Source: Candidatus Omnitrophota bacterium
GTDB lineage: Bacteria; Omnitrophota; Gorgyraeia; B26-G9
DNA: 64,000 nt
Reading direction: 5' to 3'
Assembly: GCA_018817585.1 (NCBI GenBank)
Contig: JAHITE010000097.1
Location: forward strand, 4,400-68,399
Shown here piece after piece: positions 49,921-54,098 of this stretch. The stretch's first letter is position 1. Every line of letters starts with the position of its first letter. A program made the position numbers and the translations under genes. Below the pieces are notes generated by a model. It worked only from the letters and a program-made list of their open reading frames with translations, was not told the DNA's origin and did no database searches.

Positions 49921-51219
49921 ATGAAAGCATTACTTTCAGTTATTATTTTTGTGGGAGCTTATATTGCCATTGCTTCCGATAAAGTCAGTAAAACAATAGT
50001 CGCTGTAATCGGCGCTTGTTTGGTTATTATGCTGCATCTGGTGTCATTTGAGGAGGCAATGCATGCTGTTGATTTAAATGTAATTTTTTTACTTGTGGGA
50101 ATGATGACTTGCGTCTATATTTTGTCTAAAACCGGATTTTTTGAATGGGCGGCGATTAGTGTAGCTAAATACTCTCGCGGCAATCCTTTTCTGATAATGT
50201 GTTTGCTTCTGCTGGTAACCGCAGTCTTATCTGCTTTTTTTGATAATGTGACTACAATTATTCTTCTAGTGCCCTTAACTATTCTTATTGCGGAACTTCT
50301 TGAGATTAATCCGATACCGTTTATTATTCTTGAGACATTGGCTTCAAATATTGGAGGAACAGCGACTCTGATCGGGGATCCGCCGAATATTATTATTGGC
50401 TCAGCAGCTAAGTTATCGTTTTCAGATTTTTTAGTGTACCTTTCTCCTGTGGTAATTATGATTTTCGCGGTTTTTCTTTTTACTGTTTTTTTATTATTTC
50501 GTAATGTTTTTACAGTCCAGGAGTCAATGAAAAAACGGGTGATTAATTCTATTCCGAATTTGGCTATTGTTGATAAAAAGAATATGATAAAAGCGCTTTT
50601 AATAATGGGTCTTATTTTTGTCGGGTTTTTTTTCCATGCAAAGCTTGATATAGAGCCTGGAATTGTCGCGCTTGGCGGCAGTATGCTGATGATGCTTTTT
50701 TGTAAATCAGACAGTGAAGAGACTTTGATGAAAGTTGAATGGGGTGTTATTTTCTTTTTTATCGGAATGTTTATAATGATCGCGGCTTTGGACGCAAATG
50801 GGGTTATTGAAAGAGCGGGACAGCTGATATTAAATGCTTCTGGACAAAACCTATTCCATGTATGTCTTATTGTGCTTTTTGGGTCAGCTTTATTTTCAGC
50901 GATATTGGACAATATTCCGTTTGTGATCACGATGGTTCCCCTAGTTAAAAATTTTATTGAGCATTTCGCGGTCTCTTTGGGTACTCAAAATATCGAACAA
51001 ATAAGCCAGCCTTTATGGTGGGCTTTGGCTCTGGGCGCTTGTTTGGGGGGCAATATGACAATTATTGGCGCTTCAGCGAATGTGGTTATGGTCAGGATCG
51101 CGGCGCGTAATAAATATAAGGTAACTTTCGGAAAATTCCTAAAATATGGAGTACCATTTACGATACAATCATTGATAATAAGCGCTTTATATCTTTGGCT
51201 TAGATATTTTAGAGTTTGA
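49921..51219 (+). CDS. ArsB/NhaD-superfamily (SLC13-like) ion/anion permease
   Basis: 432 aa with about 11-12 TM segments. Internal repeat with GDPPN-like re-entrant loop motifs (LIGDPPNIIIG). Confidence 0.7.
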   Translation: MKALLSVIIFVGAYIAIASDKVSKTIVAVIGACLVIMLHLVSFEEAMHAVDLNVIFLLVGMMTCVYILSKTGFFEWAAISVAKYSRGNPFLIMCLLLLVTAVLSAFFDNVTTIILLVPLTILIAELLEINPIPFIILETLASNIGGTATLIGDPPNIIIGSAAKLSFSDFLVYLSPVVIMIFAVFLFTVFLLFRNVFTVQESMKKRVINSIPNLAIVDKKNMIKALLIMGLIFVGFFFHAKLDIEPGIVALGGSMLMMLFCKSDSEETLMKVEWGVIFFFIGMFIMIAALDANGVIERAGQLILNASGQNLFHVCLIVLFGSALFSAILDNIPFVITMVPLVKNFIEHFAVSLGTQNIEQISQPLWWALALGACLGGNMTIIGASANVVMVRIAARNKYKVTFGKFLKYGVPFTIQSLIISALYLWLRYFRV

Positions 51220-51225
51220 TTGAAA

Positions 51226-51790
51226 AAATAGCGTATAGCCCTTCGACTTTGCTCAGGGTAAACGATTAGCGATTAGAAAAAGCAAGAAGCAAAGAGCGCT
51301 TGGCTAATAGCTGATCCTCCTTTGCCAAGGCTTCGGAGGACAGGTGGCTGATAGTAAAAGCAGAAAAGCAAAAGCGATTAAAAAAGGTCACTGGAAAGCT
51401 AAAAGCTATAAACTATAAAGGACAGGAATAATTATTTAGGCGGGTTTGAAGCCTGATTTTGATAGGACTGGCAAAATCAGAGATTCATCCTCGGAGTCCC
51501 GCAGGATGCGGGACGAGAATGAGCCAAAATGATTGATTCCGGACCGCCATTGATTAGCTGGCTACAAGATGATAAGTAAATTTTACGCTGACACAAAGTT
51601 TGTAAAGTTCATAAAGTAGCTAGATTATATGGTAGGGGCCGTGCTTGTCCCGGCCCGTAATAATATGGATTATTAAATCGGGCAAATGATTGATAAGCGG
51701 GCGCAGGCAAGTTGCGCTTCTATGGTTAATTAATCGCAATACGTGATACTCACTACGCAATACTGAACCACAGGTTTCCCTTAATTGTGT
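51226..51790. repeat. long non-coding block homologous to 9335-9760
   Basis: Shares tagcgtatagc...gattagcgattagaaaaagca and cgcaatacg-N13-ctacgcaatac with the 9.3 kb block. It embeds inverted-repeat copy E. Confidence 0.5.
51632..51725. repeat. short inverted-repeat element, copy E
   Basis: 5' arm gtaggggccgtgcttgtcccggcccgtaataat is about 85% identical to copy A. The 3' arm gcgggcgcaggcaagttgcgc matches the 3' arm of copy C. Confidence 0.6.
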
Positions 51791-52043
51791 TGATTGTTTT
51801 AATGCAGTATTATGTGAGAAAATATCATAAATATTACTTGAAAAGCTAATATTATTTACATTCTCACCCCTTAGAGCTTATTTTGAAAGATCATGTTTAA
51901 TTTATTTGCCTATCTTCTTGCTCTATAATTTGTTATATTTGTATGGGGTATTGGATAATTATTATTAATTATATTTTATTTGGTTTTGTATTATAATAAT
52001 CAATAAATATTGTTTTCTAAATTAAATATTAACAAAGGAGGAA

Positions 52044-52667
52044 GTGATGAGTTTGCGGGAATATTTTGAGAATACAAAAGGTATGGGGATCTTAGCTACT
52101 TCAGATAGTAAAGGAATTATTGATACAGCTGTTTATGGTAGACCGCATTTTATTGATGAGAATAATTGTATATTTTTAATGGCTGATAAACTTTCTCATA
52201 AAAATATTCAGGAAAATCCAAAAGCTTCATATGCTTTTATTCAGAAAGACGGTCATTATACTGGTAAGCGTTTGTATTTAACAAAAACTAAAGAATTGGA
52301 TGATTCTGCTTTGGTTGATGAGCTTAGAAGAAAAAAACATGGATGTCAATGTGATGAAGATAAAAAGACTTTCGTGGTTTATTTTCAAGTTGATTCAGTC
52401 AGGCCTTTAGTGGGTGAGGGCTCTACGGCTTGTTCAGATAAGGCAGATACTTGTCCTACCTGTATGCAGGAAACAGGCTCAACAGGACATATGTGTGTTC
52501 CAGCTAATAAAAAAGACGAGAAATGTAATTGGTGCGGAGCAATGATTCCAACTGAACGCCATTTATGCAATGAAAAAGTAAAAGAACTGGCATATATATG
52601 CAATAGTTGCGGCAGGACAGCTGTTAAAGCGGAGCATTTATGTCAGCCTAAAAAGATTGAAAAATAA
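52044..52667 (+). CDS. PNPOx-like (FMN-binding split-barrel) domain fused to a C-terminal triple C-x2-C-x8-H-x-C repeat domain
   Basis: The N-terminus resembles pyridoxamine 5'-phosphate oxidase-family proteins. C-terminal repeats: CPTCMQETGSTGHMC, CNWCGAMIPTERHLC, CNSCGRTAVKAEHLC. Strong AGGAGG RBS. Confidence 0.7.
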   Translation: MMSLREYFENTKGMGILATSDSKGIIDTAVYGRPHFIDENNCIFLMADKLSHKNIQENPKASYAFIQKDGHYTGKRLYLTKTKELDDSALVDELRRKKHGCQCDEDKKTFVVYFQVDSVRPLVGEGSTACSDKADTCPTCMQETGSTGHMCVPANKKDEKCNWCGAMIPTERHLCNEKVKELAYICNSCGRTAVKAEHLCQPKKIEK

Positions 52668-52722: not shown

Positions 52723-53616
52723 ATGATTAAATTAGGCTTGTGTTGTAAATTTCAAGTAGAATCAATTAAATTCTATACAACAACAGCGCGTTATATAAGC
52801 AAGCTTACTCCTAAACTCAGGTCGCGTAAAATTTCTCAGTTATGTTTGCAGAATAGTAAATCACTTTTATCAGCAATCAATTATTGTGGTGATAATAAAA
52901 TTGGGTGTTTTAGAGTGAATAGCAGAATTTTGCCGCTTAAGACTCATCCTAACTATGGCTATGATTTAAATTTACTAGAGCATGCAGAAGAGATAAAGAA
53001 TTTTTTTGAGCTTTGCAAACAGACAGCAAAAAAACGGGGAATACGTTTAACTTTTCACCCGGATCAGTTTATTTTATTGAGTTCAAAAGATCAGGCTATA
53101 ACCAATAAATCAATAGAAGAGCTTATATATCAATCTGAAGTAAGTGAATTAATTGGTGCGGATGTTATCAATATCCATGCCGGAGGCGGATATGGGGATA
53201 AAATATCTGCTTTGAAAATAGTTAGCAGAGTTCTATCTAAGCTTGATAAAAAAATATTGAATAAAATAACATTTGAAAATGATGATCGCGTATATACTCC
53301 CGCAGATCTTTTGGGTTTTTGCAAAGATAATGAAATCCCTTTTGTATATGATGTGCACCATCATCGCTGTTTGCCTGATCAGCATTCGATTGAATATGTT
53401 ACTGAAATGGCGCTAAAGACATGGAATCGGGAGCCATTATTTCATGTTTCCAGTCCGAAATTTGGCTGGAATGGATCAAAACTTAATTCACATCATGATT
53501 ATATTGATATAAATGATTTTCCTCGGTGCTGGCTTGATTTAAATATTACAGTTGAGGTTGAGGCAAAGGCAAAAGAATTGGCTGTAAAAAAAATAGCTGG
53601 TCAGCTTGGTTTGTAA
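52723..53616 (+). CDS. uvsE: UV DNA damage endonuclease
   Basis: Colinear with B. subtilis UvsE: HPDQF, NIHAGG, ENDD, FVYDVHHH, HVSSPK, HHDYI. Confidence 0.9.
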   Translation: MIKLGLCCKFQVESIKFYTTTARYISKLTPKLRSRKISQLCLQNSKSLLSAINYCGDNKIGCFRVNSRILPLKTHPNYGYDLNLLEHAEEIKNFFELCKQTAKKRGIRLTFHPDQFILLSSKDQAITNKSIEELIYQSEVSELIGADVINIHAGGGYGDKISALKIVSRVLSKLDKKILNKITFENDDRVYTPADLLGFCKDNEIPFVYDVHHHRCLPDQHSIEYVTEMALKTWNREPLFHVSSPKFGWNGSKLNSHHDYIDINDFPRCWLDLNITVEVEAKAKELAVKKIAGQLGL

Positions 53617-53633: not shown

Positions 53634-54098
53634 ATGGATAAAATAGAAATACTAAATCGAATAAAAATGCTTTTAAATACGCAGCATTTTGCTGTATTGG
53701 CAACTCAAAGCAGTGATTACCCCTATTCGAGTTTAGTGGGATTTTCTCAGTCAGAGAACTGTGAAGAAATTATATTTGCTACGATTCGTGATACTCATAA
53801 ATATAGGAATTTGCAAAAATTTCCTAATGTCTCATTGCTTATTGATAGTCAGACAAACCAGGCTAATGATTTTAAGCAAGCTCAAGCCCTTACAGTATTA
53901 GGGAAATCAAAAGAAATTAACGATCAAGAAAAAAAAGAATATTTGGCTAGTTATCTTAAGAAACAGCCTTATTTAAAAGAATTTGTAACAGCTAATAATT
54001 GCGCGTTAATAAAAATAAGTGTTGTTAAATATATTTTGGTTAATGACTTTCAAAATATTTATGAATATTCTTTTGAAAGCAATAAAGATACTATTTAG
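53634..54098 (+). CDS. pyridoxamine 5'-phosphate oxidase-family (FMN-binding) protein
   Basis: 154 aa. Split-barrel family pattern (QHFAVLATQSSDYPYSSLVGF). Confidence 0.6.
   Translation: MDKIEILNRIKMLLNTQHFAVLATQSSDYPYSSLVGFSQSENCEEIIFATIRDTHKYRNLQKFPNVSLLIDSQTNQANDFKQAQALTVLGKSKEINDQEKKEYLASYLKKQPYLKEFVTANNCALIKISVVKYILVNDFQNIYEYSFESNKDTI

What the first reader, a model, noticed from the sequence alone, without database searches (positions are those of the whole stretch)
52044..52667. PNPOx-like flavoprotein fused to three exact C-x2-C-x8-H-x-C repeats
The C-terminal 80 aa carry three consecutive copies of an identical-spacing CCHC motif (CPTCMQETGSTGHMC, CNWCGAMIPTERHLC, CNSCGRTAVKAEHLC). 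Each resembles a mini zinc-knuckle or rubredoxin-like metal site. I do not recognise this repeat as a described domain. It is fused to an FMN-binding split-barrel domain. It sits next to the UV-damage endonuclease uvsE and a second stand-alone PNPOx gene, which suggests a redox or DNA-damage-linked function, for example a metal-dependent flavin reductase or a nucleic-acid-binding module.
Basis: seen in the sequence. Interest (0 to 1): 0.6.

Follow-up and report, generated by a model that had tools for sequence, protein, structure and literature searches.

The report
Undescribed triple zinc-knuckle module fused to split-barrel
A real, conserved gene from an Omnitrophota bacterium joins a cofactor-binding split-barrel domain to a previously undescribed 70-residue module of three small zinc knuckles; that module is mostly a free-standing small protein in several uncultured phyla and is repeatedly fused to stress-protection proteins, so it is probably a portable nucleic-acid-binding tag.

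Summary
ORF 52044..52667 (likely start ATG 52047) encodes a split-barrel (PNPOx-like) domain, a flexible linker and three exact C-x2-C-x8-H-x-C motifs. It is not a fusion artefact: at least 16 full-length homologues exist, down to 44% identity.

The C-terminal 70 aa match no Pfam or NCBIfam model above threshold and have no significant PDB fold match. It is an autonomous family (281 representatives), mostly stand-alone 75-90 aa proteins of Omnitrophota, Elusimicrobia, Sumerlaeota and Armatimonadota. Nine Cys and the first two His are invariant. The third His is replaceable (H/Y/F/Q/N/L).

The module is also fused to dodecin-like, TudS-like, superoxide-reductase, Hsp20 and receiver domains. About 18% of divergent members carry Lys/Ala-rich histone-H1-like tails.

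The uvsE adjacency belongs to the split-barrel family, not the module. That family sits in TspO / YfcH-like / RudS / UvdE / Msr neighbourhoods, and a decayed RudS gene lies just upstream in the window.

Best reading (about 0.45): a zinc-stabilised nucleic-acid-binding array that tethers a cofactor-binding protective domain, within a UV/oxidative-damage response. Redox-switch, rubredoxin-like and protein-adaptor readings remain open. I rate it a new variant of a known kind, of moderate interest.

The parts
52047..52667 (+). Coding sequence of the two-domain protein. The likely start is ATG 52047; the mechanical ORF starts at GTG 52044. Stop codon at 52665-52667.
   Evidence: Homologues start MSL... 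and are 205-214 aa. GGAGG lies 5 nt upstream of the ATG.
52047..52418 (+). N-terminal split-barrel (PNPOx-like) domain, aa 2-125. The cofactor is undetermined (FMN, heme or F420 class).
   Evidence: PF01243 at 18.7-20.5 bits, below the 28.1 cut-off. Profile hit to PDB 3in6 'FMN-binding protein', E 3.5e-5. AF2 pLDDT above 90 over most of the domain. Foldseek hits to HupZ, 3in6, PNPOx-like, F420 reductase and PhdC at probability 1.0.
52419..52451 (+). Flexible linker (aa 126-136) between the two domains.
   Evidence: AF2 pLDDT below 50 here, and the model gives no confident docking of the two domains. Stand-alone N-domain homologues end at ...PLIGD.
52452..52496 (+). Knuckle 1, CPTCMQETGSTGHMC (C-x2-C-x8-H-x-C).
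   Evidence: C6, C9, H18 and C20 (module numbering) are invariant in 119 sequences.
52524..52568 (+). Knuckle 2, CNWCGAMIPTERHLC.
   Evidence: C30, C33, R41 and H42 are invariant; C44 is present in 118 of 119 and W32 in 118 of 119. AF2 predicts a beta-hairpin followed by a short helix carrying the His.
52599..52643 (+). Knuckle 3, CNSCGRTAVKAEHLC. This is the most conserved segment (YICNSCGRTAV), but its His position is variable across the family.
   Evidence: C55, C58, G59, R60, A62 and C69 are invariant. Position 67 is H55/Y37/F9/Q5/N5/L4. This is the highest-pLDDT block of the module.
52452..52658 (+). The whole triple-knuckle module (aa 137-205), an autonomous domain family.
   Evidence: A profile of the module finds more than 160 mostly stand-alone 74-90 aa proteins and 281 representatives at E<=1e-3 in an exhaustive search.
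51980..51999 (+). Conserved promoter-like block TTGGTTTTGTATTATAATAA, containing TATAAT, about 50 nt upstream of the start codon.
   Evidence: Identical in the window, L016 and L017 within an otherwise divergent AT-rich spacer. Function is not tested.
52037..52041 (+). Shine-Dalgarno-like GGAGG.
   Evidence: conserved in L016 and L017.
51778..51897 (+). Remnant (last 40 codons) of a RudS-like (TudS/DUF523 + DUF1722) gene. The gene is intact at this position in the relative L016.
   Evidence: tblastn with L016:6404-7396 gives 72.5% identity over 40 aa, E 1e-12. The L016 protein matches PF04463 and PF08349.
52723..53616 (+). UV-damage endonuclease UvdE/UvsE, 55 nt downstream on the same strand.
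   Evidence: PF03851 174.8 bits; TIGR00629 153.3 bits. No terminator-like site lies between the genes.
53634..54098 (+). Second, stand-alone PNPOx-family gene.
   Evidence: PF01243 52.2 bits against a cut-off of 28.1. It is syntenic in L016 and L017.

Best explanation
The gene encodes a genuine two-domain protein of an Omnitrophota bacterium.

The C-terminal 70 residues are an undescribed, independently folding module of three tandem mini zinc knuckles. Each is predicted as a beta-hairpin carrying C-x2-C, followed by a short helical turn carrying H-x-C. Knuckles 1 and 2 would bind a metal, most likely Zn(II), through Cys3His. Knuckle 3 would use Cys3 plus a dispensable fourth ligand.

The module is normally a free-standing 75-90 aa protein. 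I infer that it is a portable binding module whose target is a conserved nucleic acid or nucleoprotein (DNA or tRNA/RNA).

In the window protein a flexible linker ties it to a split-barrel cofactor-binding domain. That domain belongs to a family embedded in TspO / YfcH-like / RudS / UvdE / Msr neighbourhoods. The fusion would therefore place a cofactor-dependent protective or repair activity on nucleic acid, as part of a UV and (photo-)oxidative damage response, expressed together with uvsE.

Shown: the anatomy, its conservation, the domain promiscuity and the gene neighbourhoods. Inferred: zinc as the metal, nucleic acid as the target, and the damage-response role.
For: 1. Real and conserved. 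16 full-length fusions were aligned, at 89-44% identity to the window protein. Independent genome loci are L016, L017, L018, L022 and L010.
2. Autonomous module. It is stand-alone in most of 62 GTDB loci. An exhaustive search gives 281 representatives at 50% identity.
3. Ligand pattern. Nine Cys and two His are invariant or nearly so, and R41, K47 and R60 are invariant. AF2 (pLDDT 74.6) gives a hairpin plus short helix for each repeat. There is weak profile similarity to tandem C2H2 arrays (PRDM9, E 1.6e-5).
4. Pointers to nucleic acid. 27 module proteins, roughly 18% of the divergent representatives, carry strongly basic Lys/Ala/Pro-rich tails; one scores against the histone-H1-like HC2 model at E 3.5e-7. 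A receiver-domain+module protein puts the module in the output position. TudS-like+module proteins (L034, P0395) put it where RudS carries its tRNA-binding DUF1722 domain (PMC11417400).
5. Fixed target. Non-ligand residues are 55-75% identical across phyla. This argues for one conserved target rather than varied operator sequences.
6. Damage-response theme of partners and neighbours. Fusions: dodecin-like in 11 of 62 loci, a rubredoxin-like+desulfoferrodoxin protein inside a ferritin/rubrerythrin/flavodiiron cluster, and Hsp20. Neighbours: Pyr_excise (L019, L020, L035), MsrAB within 8 kb in 7 loci, rubrerythrin, AhpC, MutY and carotenoid genes.
7. N-domain family context. Among 80 metagenome loci, a YfcH-like/DUF1731 gene is present in 37, TspO in 27, RudS in 7, UvdE in 3 and Msr in 6. 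RudS lies directly upstream in L016, L022, L087 and L088, with a remnant in the window.
8. No fixed interdomain contact. AF2 of the full-length protein gives a confident barrel and a floppy, undocked module.
Against: - No direct evidence for metal identity or nucleic-acid binding.
- The module is only mildly basic (12 K+R against 10 D+E in the window copy) and also has conserved acidic positions.
- There is no universal gene partner. The most frequent synteny (greA upstream, a polyprenyl synthase downstream) may be lineage inheritance only.
- The receiver fusion rests on one 1.1-kb low-coverage contig.
- The TudS-like assignment of the L034 and P0395 N-domain is below the Pfam cut-off (21-23 bits against 34.7).
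- The dodecin-like partner lacks the flavin-stacking Trp, so what the partners bind is unclear.
- The AF2 model of the module is of only moderate confidence, and no coordinates were available to check ligand geometry.
- Hsp20 and superoxide-reductase fusions do not obviously need nucleic-acid targeting.
Confidence: 0.45

Rival explanations
1. Redox-switch or sacrificial zinc-thiolate centre. The nine-Cys module holds Zn(II) in the reduced state. Oxidants (peroxide, singlet oxygen, disulfide stress) oxidise the thiolates and release zinc. This unfolds the module and so switches or protects the attached domain or a partner, as in Hsp33, RsrA or ChrR.
For: - The module is very Cys-rich (9 Cys in about 70 aa, invariant or nearly so).
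- Its fusion partners and neighbours are oxidative-stress proteins: an Hsp20 chaperone, superoxide reductase, rubrerythrin, AhpC, MsrAB and glutaredoxin/ferredoxin-thioredoxin reductase.
- An ECF sigma factor lies downstream of a dodecin-module gene in L012.
- Cys3His sites are the ligand set of ZAS-type redox sensors (established knowledge).
Against: - It does not explain the Lys/Ala-rich histone-like tails or the receiver-domain architecture.
- No known redox-switch family matched by sequence or fold.
- It is compatible with, rather than exclusive of, nucleic-acid binding.
Confidence: 0.2
2. Rubredoxin-like electron-transfer domain. The knuckles bind iron and shuttle electrons to or from the cofactor of the attached domain. 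The analogy is to high-molecular-weight rubredoxin or flavorubredoxin.
For: - C-x2-C-G knuckles are typical of rubredoxin-type sites.
- The partners are redox-cofactor proteins: the split barrel, a superoxide reductase and a TudS-like domain.
- The module occurs in clusters with rubredoxin, a flavodiiron protein and rubrerythrin.
Against: - No rubredoxin model matches.
- The ligand set is Cys3His with a dispensable fourth ligand in knuckle 3. The sites are three separate mini-sites rather than one site built from two knuckles.
- The superoxide-reductase fusion already has its own rubredoxin-like domain.
- The Hsp20, receiver and Lys/Ala-tail architectures make no sense for an electron carrier.
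- AF2 shows no docking of the module on the barrel.
- The dodecin-like partner lacks the flavin-stacking Trp.
Confidence: 0.12
3. Protein-protein adaptor. The module binds a conserved protein (for example RNA polymerase or another core machine) and recruits or regulates it. The fusions simply deliver cargo to that protein.
For: - High cross-phylum conservation of non-ligand residues points to a fixed partner.
- greA lies upstream in 14 of 62 loci.
- Many small zinc modules are protein-binding (established knowledge).
Against: - The greA synteny is largely confined to one set of related Omnitrophota loci plus L028, and may be inherited gene order.
- Lys/Ala-rich tails are characteristic of nucleic-acid binders.
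- No co-varying partner gene was found.
Confidence: 0.13
4. Chance motif or assembly/annotation artefact joining two ORFs.
For: None beyond the prior that metagenome-derived fusions can be artefacts. Some truncated homologues exist (P0013, P0015).
Against: - The reading frame is continuous.
- 16 full-length homologues come from independent assemblies, down to 44% identity.
- 0 of 200,000 shuffles reproduce three motifs.
Confidence: 0.01

Closest known systems
Tandem classical C2H2 (beta-beta-alpha) zinc-finger arrays (Pfam PF00096)
   Same: Both are tandem repeats of about 24-25 residues. Both have a C-x2-C knuckle in a beta-hairpin followed by a His in a short helix, share a (Y/F)-x-C-x2-C-G-(R/K) signature, and have short conserved linkers. 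This is the only significant PDB sequence similarity (PRDM9 arrays, E 1.6e-5). C2H2 arrays bind nucleic acid.
   Different: The ligand spacing is C-x2-C-x8-H-x-C, not C-x2-4-C-x12-H-x3-5-H, and the last ligand is Cys. In the alignments the His does not align with the C2H2 zinc ligands. The module is bacterial and fixed at three repeats. Its helix residues are conserved rather than variable. Foldseek finds no significant match.
CCHC zinc knuckles (Pfam PF00098, retroviral nucleocapsid type)
   Same: Same ligand set and order (Cys-Cys-His-Cys), a tiny independently folding unit used in tandem, and binding of single-stranded nucleic acid (established knowledge).
   Different: The spacing is C-x2-C-x4-H-x4-C against C-x2-C-x8-H-x-C. 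No Pfam hit was obtained. The third unit of the module often lacks the His.
Double zinc ribbon families DZR / DZR_2 (PF12773 / PF18912)
   Same: These are the only Pfam models giving any signal on the module (E 1e-3 to 5e-3), and they also have successive C-x2-C knuckles.
   Different: Scores are 17-19 bits against cut-offs of 27. Those families use Cys4 ribbons built from pairs of knuckles, and they have no established function either.
Haloarchaeal C(P)XCG zinc-finger micro-proteins (e.g. HVO_2753, HVO_0758; PMC11241148, PMC10716476, PMC6562870)
   Same: Small stand-alone proteins of under 90 aa with CPxC(G) knuckles. Some have roles in stress adaptation.
   Different: They are archaeal and form Cys4 sites from pairs of C(P)XCG motifs, with no H-x-C half-site. 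Sequence similarity is only chance-level (9fhl_C, E 0.17).
RudS (TudS desulfidase + DUF1722; PMC11417400)
   Same: The architecture is analogous: a catalytic or cofactor domain plus a small nucleic-acid-binding domain. A RudS-like gene lies directly upstream of the split-barrel gene in L016, L022, L087 and L088, with a remnant in the window. TudS-like+module fusions exist (L034, P0395). [quoted passage not shown]
   Different: The window protein has a split barrel rather than a TudS domain, and the module is unrelated to DUF1722. Activity on tRNA is purely hypothetical here.
High-molecular-weight rubredoxin / flavorubredoxin type fusions (flavin domain + Cys-metal domain; from established knowledge, not tested here)
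   Same: A flavin-type barrel or flavodoxin domain fused to a small Cys-rich metal domain, found in anaerobes' oxidative-stress loci.
   Different: Those carry a canonical Fe(Cys)4 rubredoxin domain. The module matches no rubredoxin model and has Cys3His sites.

Membership tests
PNPOx_N / FMN-binding split barrel (PF01243) | Sequence score at or above the Pfam gathering threshold | tested here: not met
   18.7 bits for the full protein and 20.5 bits for the N-domain alone, against a cut-off of 28.1. Precomputed PF01243 hits exist for many homologues.
PNPOx_N / FMN-binding split barrel (PF01243) | Split-barrel fold | tested here: met
   AF2 pLDDT is above 90 over most of residues 1-120. Foldseek gives 57 PDB hits at E<=1e-3, probability 1.0, with target-normalised TM 0.64-0.75 for the best of them (HupZ, 3in6, 2htd, 3f7e, 2re7). 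The profile hits 3in6 at E 3.5e-5.
PNPOx_N / FMN-binding split barrel (PF01243) | Binds FMN (rather than heme or F420) | not testable with these tools
   The top structural neighbours include heme-, FMN- and F420-binding proteins. TspO neighbours of the family leave a tetrapyrrole ligand open.
C2H2 zinc finger (PF00096) | C-x2-4-C-x12-H-x3-5-H ligand pattern and a model score above threshold | tested here: not met
   The pattern is C-x2-C-x8-H-x-C. There is no PF00096 hit on the window protein. The weak PDB similarity does not align the ligands.
CCHC zinc knuckle (PF00098) | C-x2-C-x4-H-x4-C spacing | tested here: not met
   The spacing is x2/x8/x1. No Pfam hit.
Rubredoxin (PF00301) | Two C-x2-C knuckles forming one Fe(Cys)4 site, and a model match | tested here: not met
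   No rubredoxin model hit at E<=1. The conserved ligands include two invariant His.
Double zinc ribbon (PF12773 / PF18912) | Score at or above the gathering threshold | tested here: not met
   17.4 and 18.9 bits against 27.3 and 27.
Triple C-x2-C-x8-(H)-x-C module (family defined here) | Nine Cys in three C-x2-C...C units with His in units 1 and 2, and a ...YICNSCGRTAV... core | tested here: met
   The window module scores E 4.8e-40 against the family HMM and has all invariant columns.
Triple C-x2-C-x8-(H)-x-C module (family defined here) | Binds Zn(II) | not testable with these tools
   Inferred from the ligand pattern and the predicted knuckle-plus-helix fold.
Dodecin (PF07311), the fusion partner in homologues | Pfam match, and the flavin-stacking Trp | tested here: inconclusive
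   The Pfam score is 55.5 bits against 22.5. However, the Trp of solved dodecins (L[DR]WFEV) is Phe in nearly all fused copies (HFFE). According to PMC7414021, bound flavins sit between symmetry-related Trp residues.
UvdE/UvsE (neighbour gene 52723..53616) | PF03851 / TIGR00629 above threshold | tested here: met
   174.8 bits against 24, and 153.3 bits against 124.45.

The most novel reading that the evidence does not exclude
The triple-knuckle module is a nucleic-acid-binding array specific for damaged or structured nucleic acid, which turns otherwise soluble protective proteins into nucleic-acid-tethered devices.
- Dodecin-like+module would form a 12-valent, Dps-like shell on DNA (dodecin termini are surface-exposed; PMC7414021).
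- Superoxide-reductase+module and Hsp20+module would act locally.
- The split-barrel+module protein of this window would be a cofactor-dependent enzyme acting directly on UV- or photo-damaged DNA or tRNA, alongside RudS and UvdE. That would be a new type of nucleic-acid repair or photoprotection system in uncultured anaerobic phyla.
Probability: 0.15. Interest if true: 0.8.

Novelty: new variant of a known kind. Interest (0 to 1): 0.52.

Why it matters
Small Cys-rich proteins are routinely left as 'hypothetical'. This one is a well-conserved, widespread family in Omnitrophota, Elusimicrobia, Sumerlaeota, Armatimonadota and relatives, with no database model and a ligand spacing I could not find in the searchable literature.

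Its repeated natural fusions give a concrete, testable hypothesis for an unknown small-protein family. The partners are split-barrel, dodecin-like, TudS-like, superoxide-reductase, Hsp20 and receiver domains.

The analysis also gives the associated split-barrel subfamily a functional neighbourhood: TspO, a YfcH-like epimerase, RudS, UvdE and Msr. This points to how these mostly anaerobic, ultra-small bacteria deal with UV and (photo-)oxidative damage.

If the module proves to be a compact 70-aa nucleic-acid-binding tag, it would also be a useful engineering part.

Tried and rejected
- Rfam on the whole window (gathering thresholds) and on 51150-52100 (E<=1): no RNA family. No tRNA or tmRNA near the gene.
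- NCBIfam: nothing for the fusion protein except a faint TIGR03847/DUF3090 C-terminal match (E 0.06), too weak to use.
- Full-length AF2 to look for domain docking: none was confident.
- A universal operon partner of the module, sought by a Pfam census of 129 nearest and 113 next-nearest neighbours: none found.
- 'uvsE adjacency reflects the module': rejected. It is conserved only in close relatives among module loci, but recurs next to module-less split-barrel genes.
- Photolyase (E. coli PhrB probe): absent from all 160+ loci and from the window.
- Carotenoid linkage: one lineage only.
- 'Both fusion partners are flavin binders' as a Rosetta-stone argument: weakened. The dodecin-like partner lacks the flavin-stacking Trp, and the barrel's ligand is unknown.
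- Viral contigs: no module.
- Literature searches for the motif spacing and for dodecin plus zinc-finger fusions: nothing relevant.
- P0258 and P0382 in the exhaustive search are low-complexity false positives.
Full report
**1. Observation**

The ORF at 52044..52667 (+) is uninterrupted and translates to 207 aa. It contains exactly three C-x2-C-x8-H-x-C motifs, at aa 137-151, 161-175 and 186-200 (nt 52452-52496, 52524-52568, 52599-52643). None of 200,000 composition-preserving shuffles, of the whole protein or of its last 76 residues, produced three such motifs. The more plausible start is ATG 52047: GGAGG lies at 52037-52041, and homologues start MSL... and are 206 aa. The neighbours are as described. 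52723..53616 is UvdE (PF03851 174.8 bits; TIGR00629 153 bits) and 53634..54098 is a PNPOx_N protein (52.2 bits). The closest genomes are Candidatus Omnitrophota MAGs (L016 and L017; flanking genes 71-95% identical at the protein level).

**2. Anatomy**

Residues 2-125 form a split barrel.
- The Pfam PNPOx_N score is below threshold (18.7-20.5 bits against 28.1).
- A family profile hits PDB 3in6 'FMN-binding protein' at E 3.5e-5.
- The AF2 model has pLDDT above 90 over most of the domain. It matches HupZ (heme), 3in6 (FMN), PNPOx-like proteins, an F420 reductase and PhdC at Foldseek probability 1.0.

The fold is therefore secure, but the cofactor is not.

Residues 126-136 are a low-confidence linker, and the module is not docked on the barrel. 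Modelled alone with 119 homologues, the module reaches pLDDT 74.6. Each repeat appears as a beta-hairpin carrying C-x2-C, followed by a short helix carrying the His.

**3. The module is an autonomous, undescribed family**

No Pfam or NCBIfam model reaches threshold; DZR and DZR_2 give 17-19 bits against cut-offs of 27. Foldseek against the PDB gives nothing with E<1. The only sequence-level PDB similarity is to tandem C2H2 arrays (PRDM9, E 1.6e-5), and there the zinc ligands are out of register.

A profile of the module finds more than 160 proteins, almost all stand-alone at 74-90 aa. A scan of one genome per GTDB species finds 62 loci. These are in Omnitrophota (including Ca. Velamenicoccus archaeovorus), Elusimicrobia, Sumerlaeota/BRC1, Armatimonadota, Zipacnadia and MAGs labelled Planctomycetia. 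An exhaustive HMMER search of 1.84 billion representatives finds 281 at E<=1e-3. Source annotations are 'hypothetical protein' or generic zinc-ribbon guesses.

In 119 aligned sequences eight of the nine Cys are invariant and the ninth (C44) is present in 118. H18, H42, R41, K47, G59, R60 and A62 are also invariant. The third-knuckle 'His' is H55/Y37/F9/Q5/N5/L4. Only 75 of 281 family members carry three strict motifs, and 173 carry two. The exact triple CCHC is thus a feature of this protein, not of the family. Knuckle 3 has the most conserved sequence (YICNSCGRTAV), yet it must work with three Cys and a dispensable fourth ligand.

**4. Architectures**

The fusion is real: 16 full-length split-barrel+module proteins were aligned, at 89-44% identity to the window protein. 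The same module is also found in these arrangements:
- C-terminal to dodecin-like domains, in 11 of 62 GTDB loci plus P0042, P0112, P0130 and P0241.
- C-terminal to a highly conserved TudS-like domain: L034 in a complete Omnitrophota genome, and P0395. The PF04463 match is weak, at 21-23 bits.
- C-terminal to a rubredoxin-like + desulfoferrodoxin (superoxide reductase) protein. It occurs on three contigs inside a ferritin/rubrerythrin/flavodiiron cluster.
- N-terminal to Hsp20 (Riflebacteria MAG).
- C-terminal to a receiver domain, on one short contig only.
- As tandem double modules with six knuckles.
- With strongly basic Lys/Ala/Pro-rich tails in 27 proteins (net charge of at least +6 in the tail). 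One scores against the histone-H1-like HC2 model at E 3.5e-7.

**5. Context of the module**

There is no universal neighbour. One group of Omnitrophota loci keeps the order OmpA-like / greA / module / convergent polyprenyl synthase. Elsewhere the neighbours recur around damage responses:
- Pyrimidine-dimer glycosylase next to dodecin+module genes (L019, L020) and within 6 kb in L035.
- MsrAB within 8 kb in seven distinct loci from several phyla. My rough expectation by chance is about one.
- Rubredoxin, flavodiiron protein and rubrerythrin, followed by crtI/crtB/lycopene cyclase and Rrf2/hybrid-cluster protein (L001 = L044).
- Rubrerythrin-like, thioesterase and a free dodecin directly after the TudS-like+module gene (L034).
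- AhpC (L036), MutY (L004), and an ECF sigma factor plus glutaredoxin/ferredoxin-thioredoxin reductase (L012).

**6. Context of the split-barrel domain**

The uvsE and second-PNPOx adjacency of the window is kept only in L016 and L017 among module loci. However, 80 metagenome loci encoding relatives of the N-domain (48-60% identity; only two carry the module) contain the following:
- a YfcH-like epimerase/DUF1731 gene in 37 loci;
- TspO in 27;
- a RudS-like gene in 7;
- UvdE in 3, in two of them directly downstream of a module-less gene (L130, L141);
- Msr in 6.

A RudS-like gene (TudS + DUF1722) lies directly upstream of the split-barrel gene in L016, in the distant fusion locus L022, and next to the module-less homologue P0017 (L087, L088). 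In the window the same position is an 820-bp stretch without ORFs. It still encodes the last 40 codons of that gene (51778-51897; 72.5% identity, E 1e-12).

RudS removes the photosensitive tRNA modification 4-thiouridine and reduces UVA-induced growth delay. According to PMC11417400, its genes are often in light-responsive operons with photolyase or carotenoid genes, and its DUF1722 domain facilitates tRNA binding.

**7. Mechanism**

What is shown: a conserved module with Cys3His, Cys3His and Cys3(X) ligand sets; an autonomous existence; promiscuous fusion through flexible linkers; and stress-related partners.

What I infer: it binds Zn(II) and is a portable binding module for a conserved nucleic-acid or nucleoprotein target. 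Five arguments support this.
- The Lys/Ala-rich tails.
- The module takes the output-domain position after a receiver domain.
- The module takes the DUF1722 position after a TudS-like domain.
- It is organised as a tandem array with conserved linkers.
- Cross-phylum conservation of non-ligand residues is unusually high. This fits a fixed target better than diverse operator sequences.

In the window protein the module would tether a cofactor-binding barrel to that target, within a cluster with uvsE that formerly included RudS. Dodecin termini are exposed on the dodecamer surface (PMC7414021). A dodecin-like+module protein would therefore display twelve modules, which is reminiscent of Dps.

Caveats:
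- The dodecin-like partners have Phe in place of the flavin-stacking Trp (HFFE against DWFE).
- The barrel's ligand is unknown.
- The module is only mildly basic.
- The receiver fusion is poorly supported.

Rival readings are a zinc-thiolate redox switch (0.20), a protein adaptor (0.13) and a rubredoxin-like electron carrier (0.12). An artefact is excluded.

**8. Comparison and novelty**

The module resembles tandem C2H2 fingers and CCHC knuckles in logic, but fails their defining ligand spacings. It resembles haloarchaeal C(P)XCG micro-proteins in size only. No paper in the searchable library mentions this spacing. I classify it as a new variant of a known kind: a new family of small zinc-knuckle arrays. 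Interest is moderate. The domain family, its fusion spectrum and the TspO/YfcH/RudS/UvdE/Msr neighbourhood of the barrel family are new, testable leads. No biochemical function is established.

**9. Dead ends**

Rfam, tRNA, viral-contig and photolyase searches were negative. No distant-fold libraries beyond Foldseek-PDB were available. No operon partner or docking interface was found.

Noticed in passing
window 51220-52043 (remnant at 51778-51897): An 820-bp stretch without ORFs lies upstream of the fusion gene. Its 3' part still encodes the last 40 codons of a RudS-like (TudS+DUF1722) gene that is intact at this position in relative L016 and absent in L017. The rest (about 51230-51777) has coding-like G+C content (0.38-0.45) and folds moderately well (z = -2.6), with no Rfam hit. 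It is probably a decayed gene, though an unannotated RNA is not excluded.
   Followed up: partly
window 52044-52049: The mechanical ORF starts at GTG 52044, but ATG 52047 is the likely start. GGAGG at 52037-52041 gives a 5-nt spacer, and homologues begin MSL... at 206 aa.
   Followed up: yes
window 51980-51999: The block TTGGTTTTGTATTATAATAA, containing a perfect TATAAT, is identical in the window, L016 and L017 within otherwise divergent AT-rich upstream DNA. It is probably the gene's own promoter. An AT-rich imperfect palindrome (ATAATTATTATTAATTAT) lies just upstream at about 51954-51973.
   Followed up: partly
window 52335-52350 (aa 98-103, HGCQCD): A surface loop of the split-barrel domain carries one or two Cys (HGC...) in 13 of 16 fused proteins, but in only 6 of 49 stand-alone homologues. 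This may be just shared ancestry, or an extra ligand or redox contact for the tethered module.
   Followed up: partly
loci L089-L168, L078-L081, L087-L088: The roughly 125-aa split-barrel subfamily of the N-domain has a strongly conserved neighbourhood: a YfcH-like epimerase with DUF1731 (37 of 80 loci), TspO or TspO-MsrB-MsrA fusions (27 of 80), a RudS-like gene (7), UvdE (3) and a second PNPOx-like gene. This looks like an undescribed photo-oxidative or UV stress gene set in anaerobes.
   Followed up: partly
L034:7401-8219, P0395, P0396-P0514: A roughly 195-aa TudS-like family (precomputed PF27735; only weak PF04463 similarity; C...C / YPCPE / NSPTCG motifs) is 75-87% identical across more than 500 clusters from Omnitrophota and Deltaproteobacteria. 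That is unusually high conservation for an unnamed protein. JGI labels it 'predicted secreted protein'.
   Followed up: no
L019, L023, L025, L027, L028, L030, L039, L073, L034:9186-9374: The dodecin-like domains of these phyla, whether fused to the module or free, have HFFE where solved dodecins have DWFE or RWFE. They therefore lack the Trp that sandwiches the flavins. Only L052 keeps a Trp. Their ligand may not be a flavin.
   Followed up: partly
P0249, P0251, P0255, P0260, P0263, P0289: Divergent family members are tandem duplications of the whole module (six knuckles, 150-175 aa). In these, knuckle 1 sometimes has x7 spacing, and the knuckle-3 and knuckle-6 'His' is D, E, L or another residue.
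   Followed up: no
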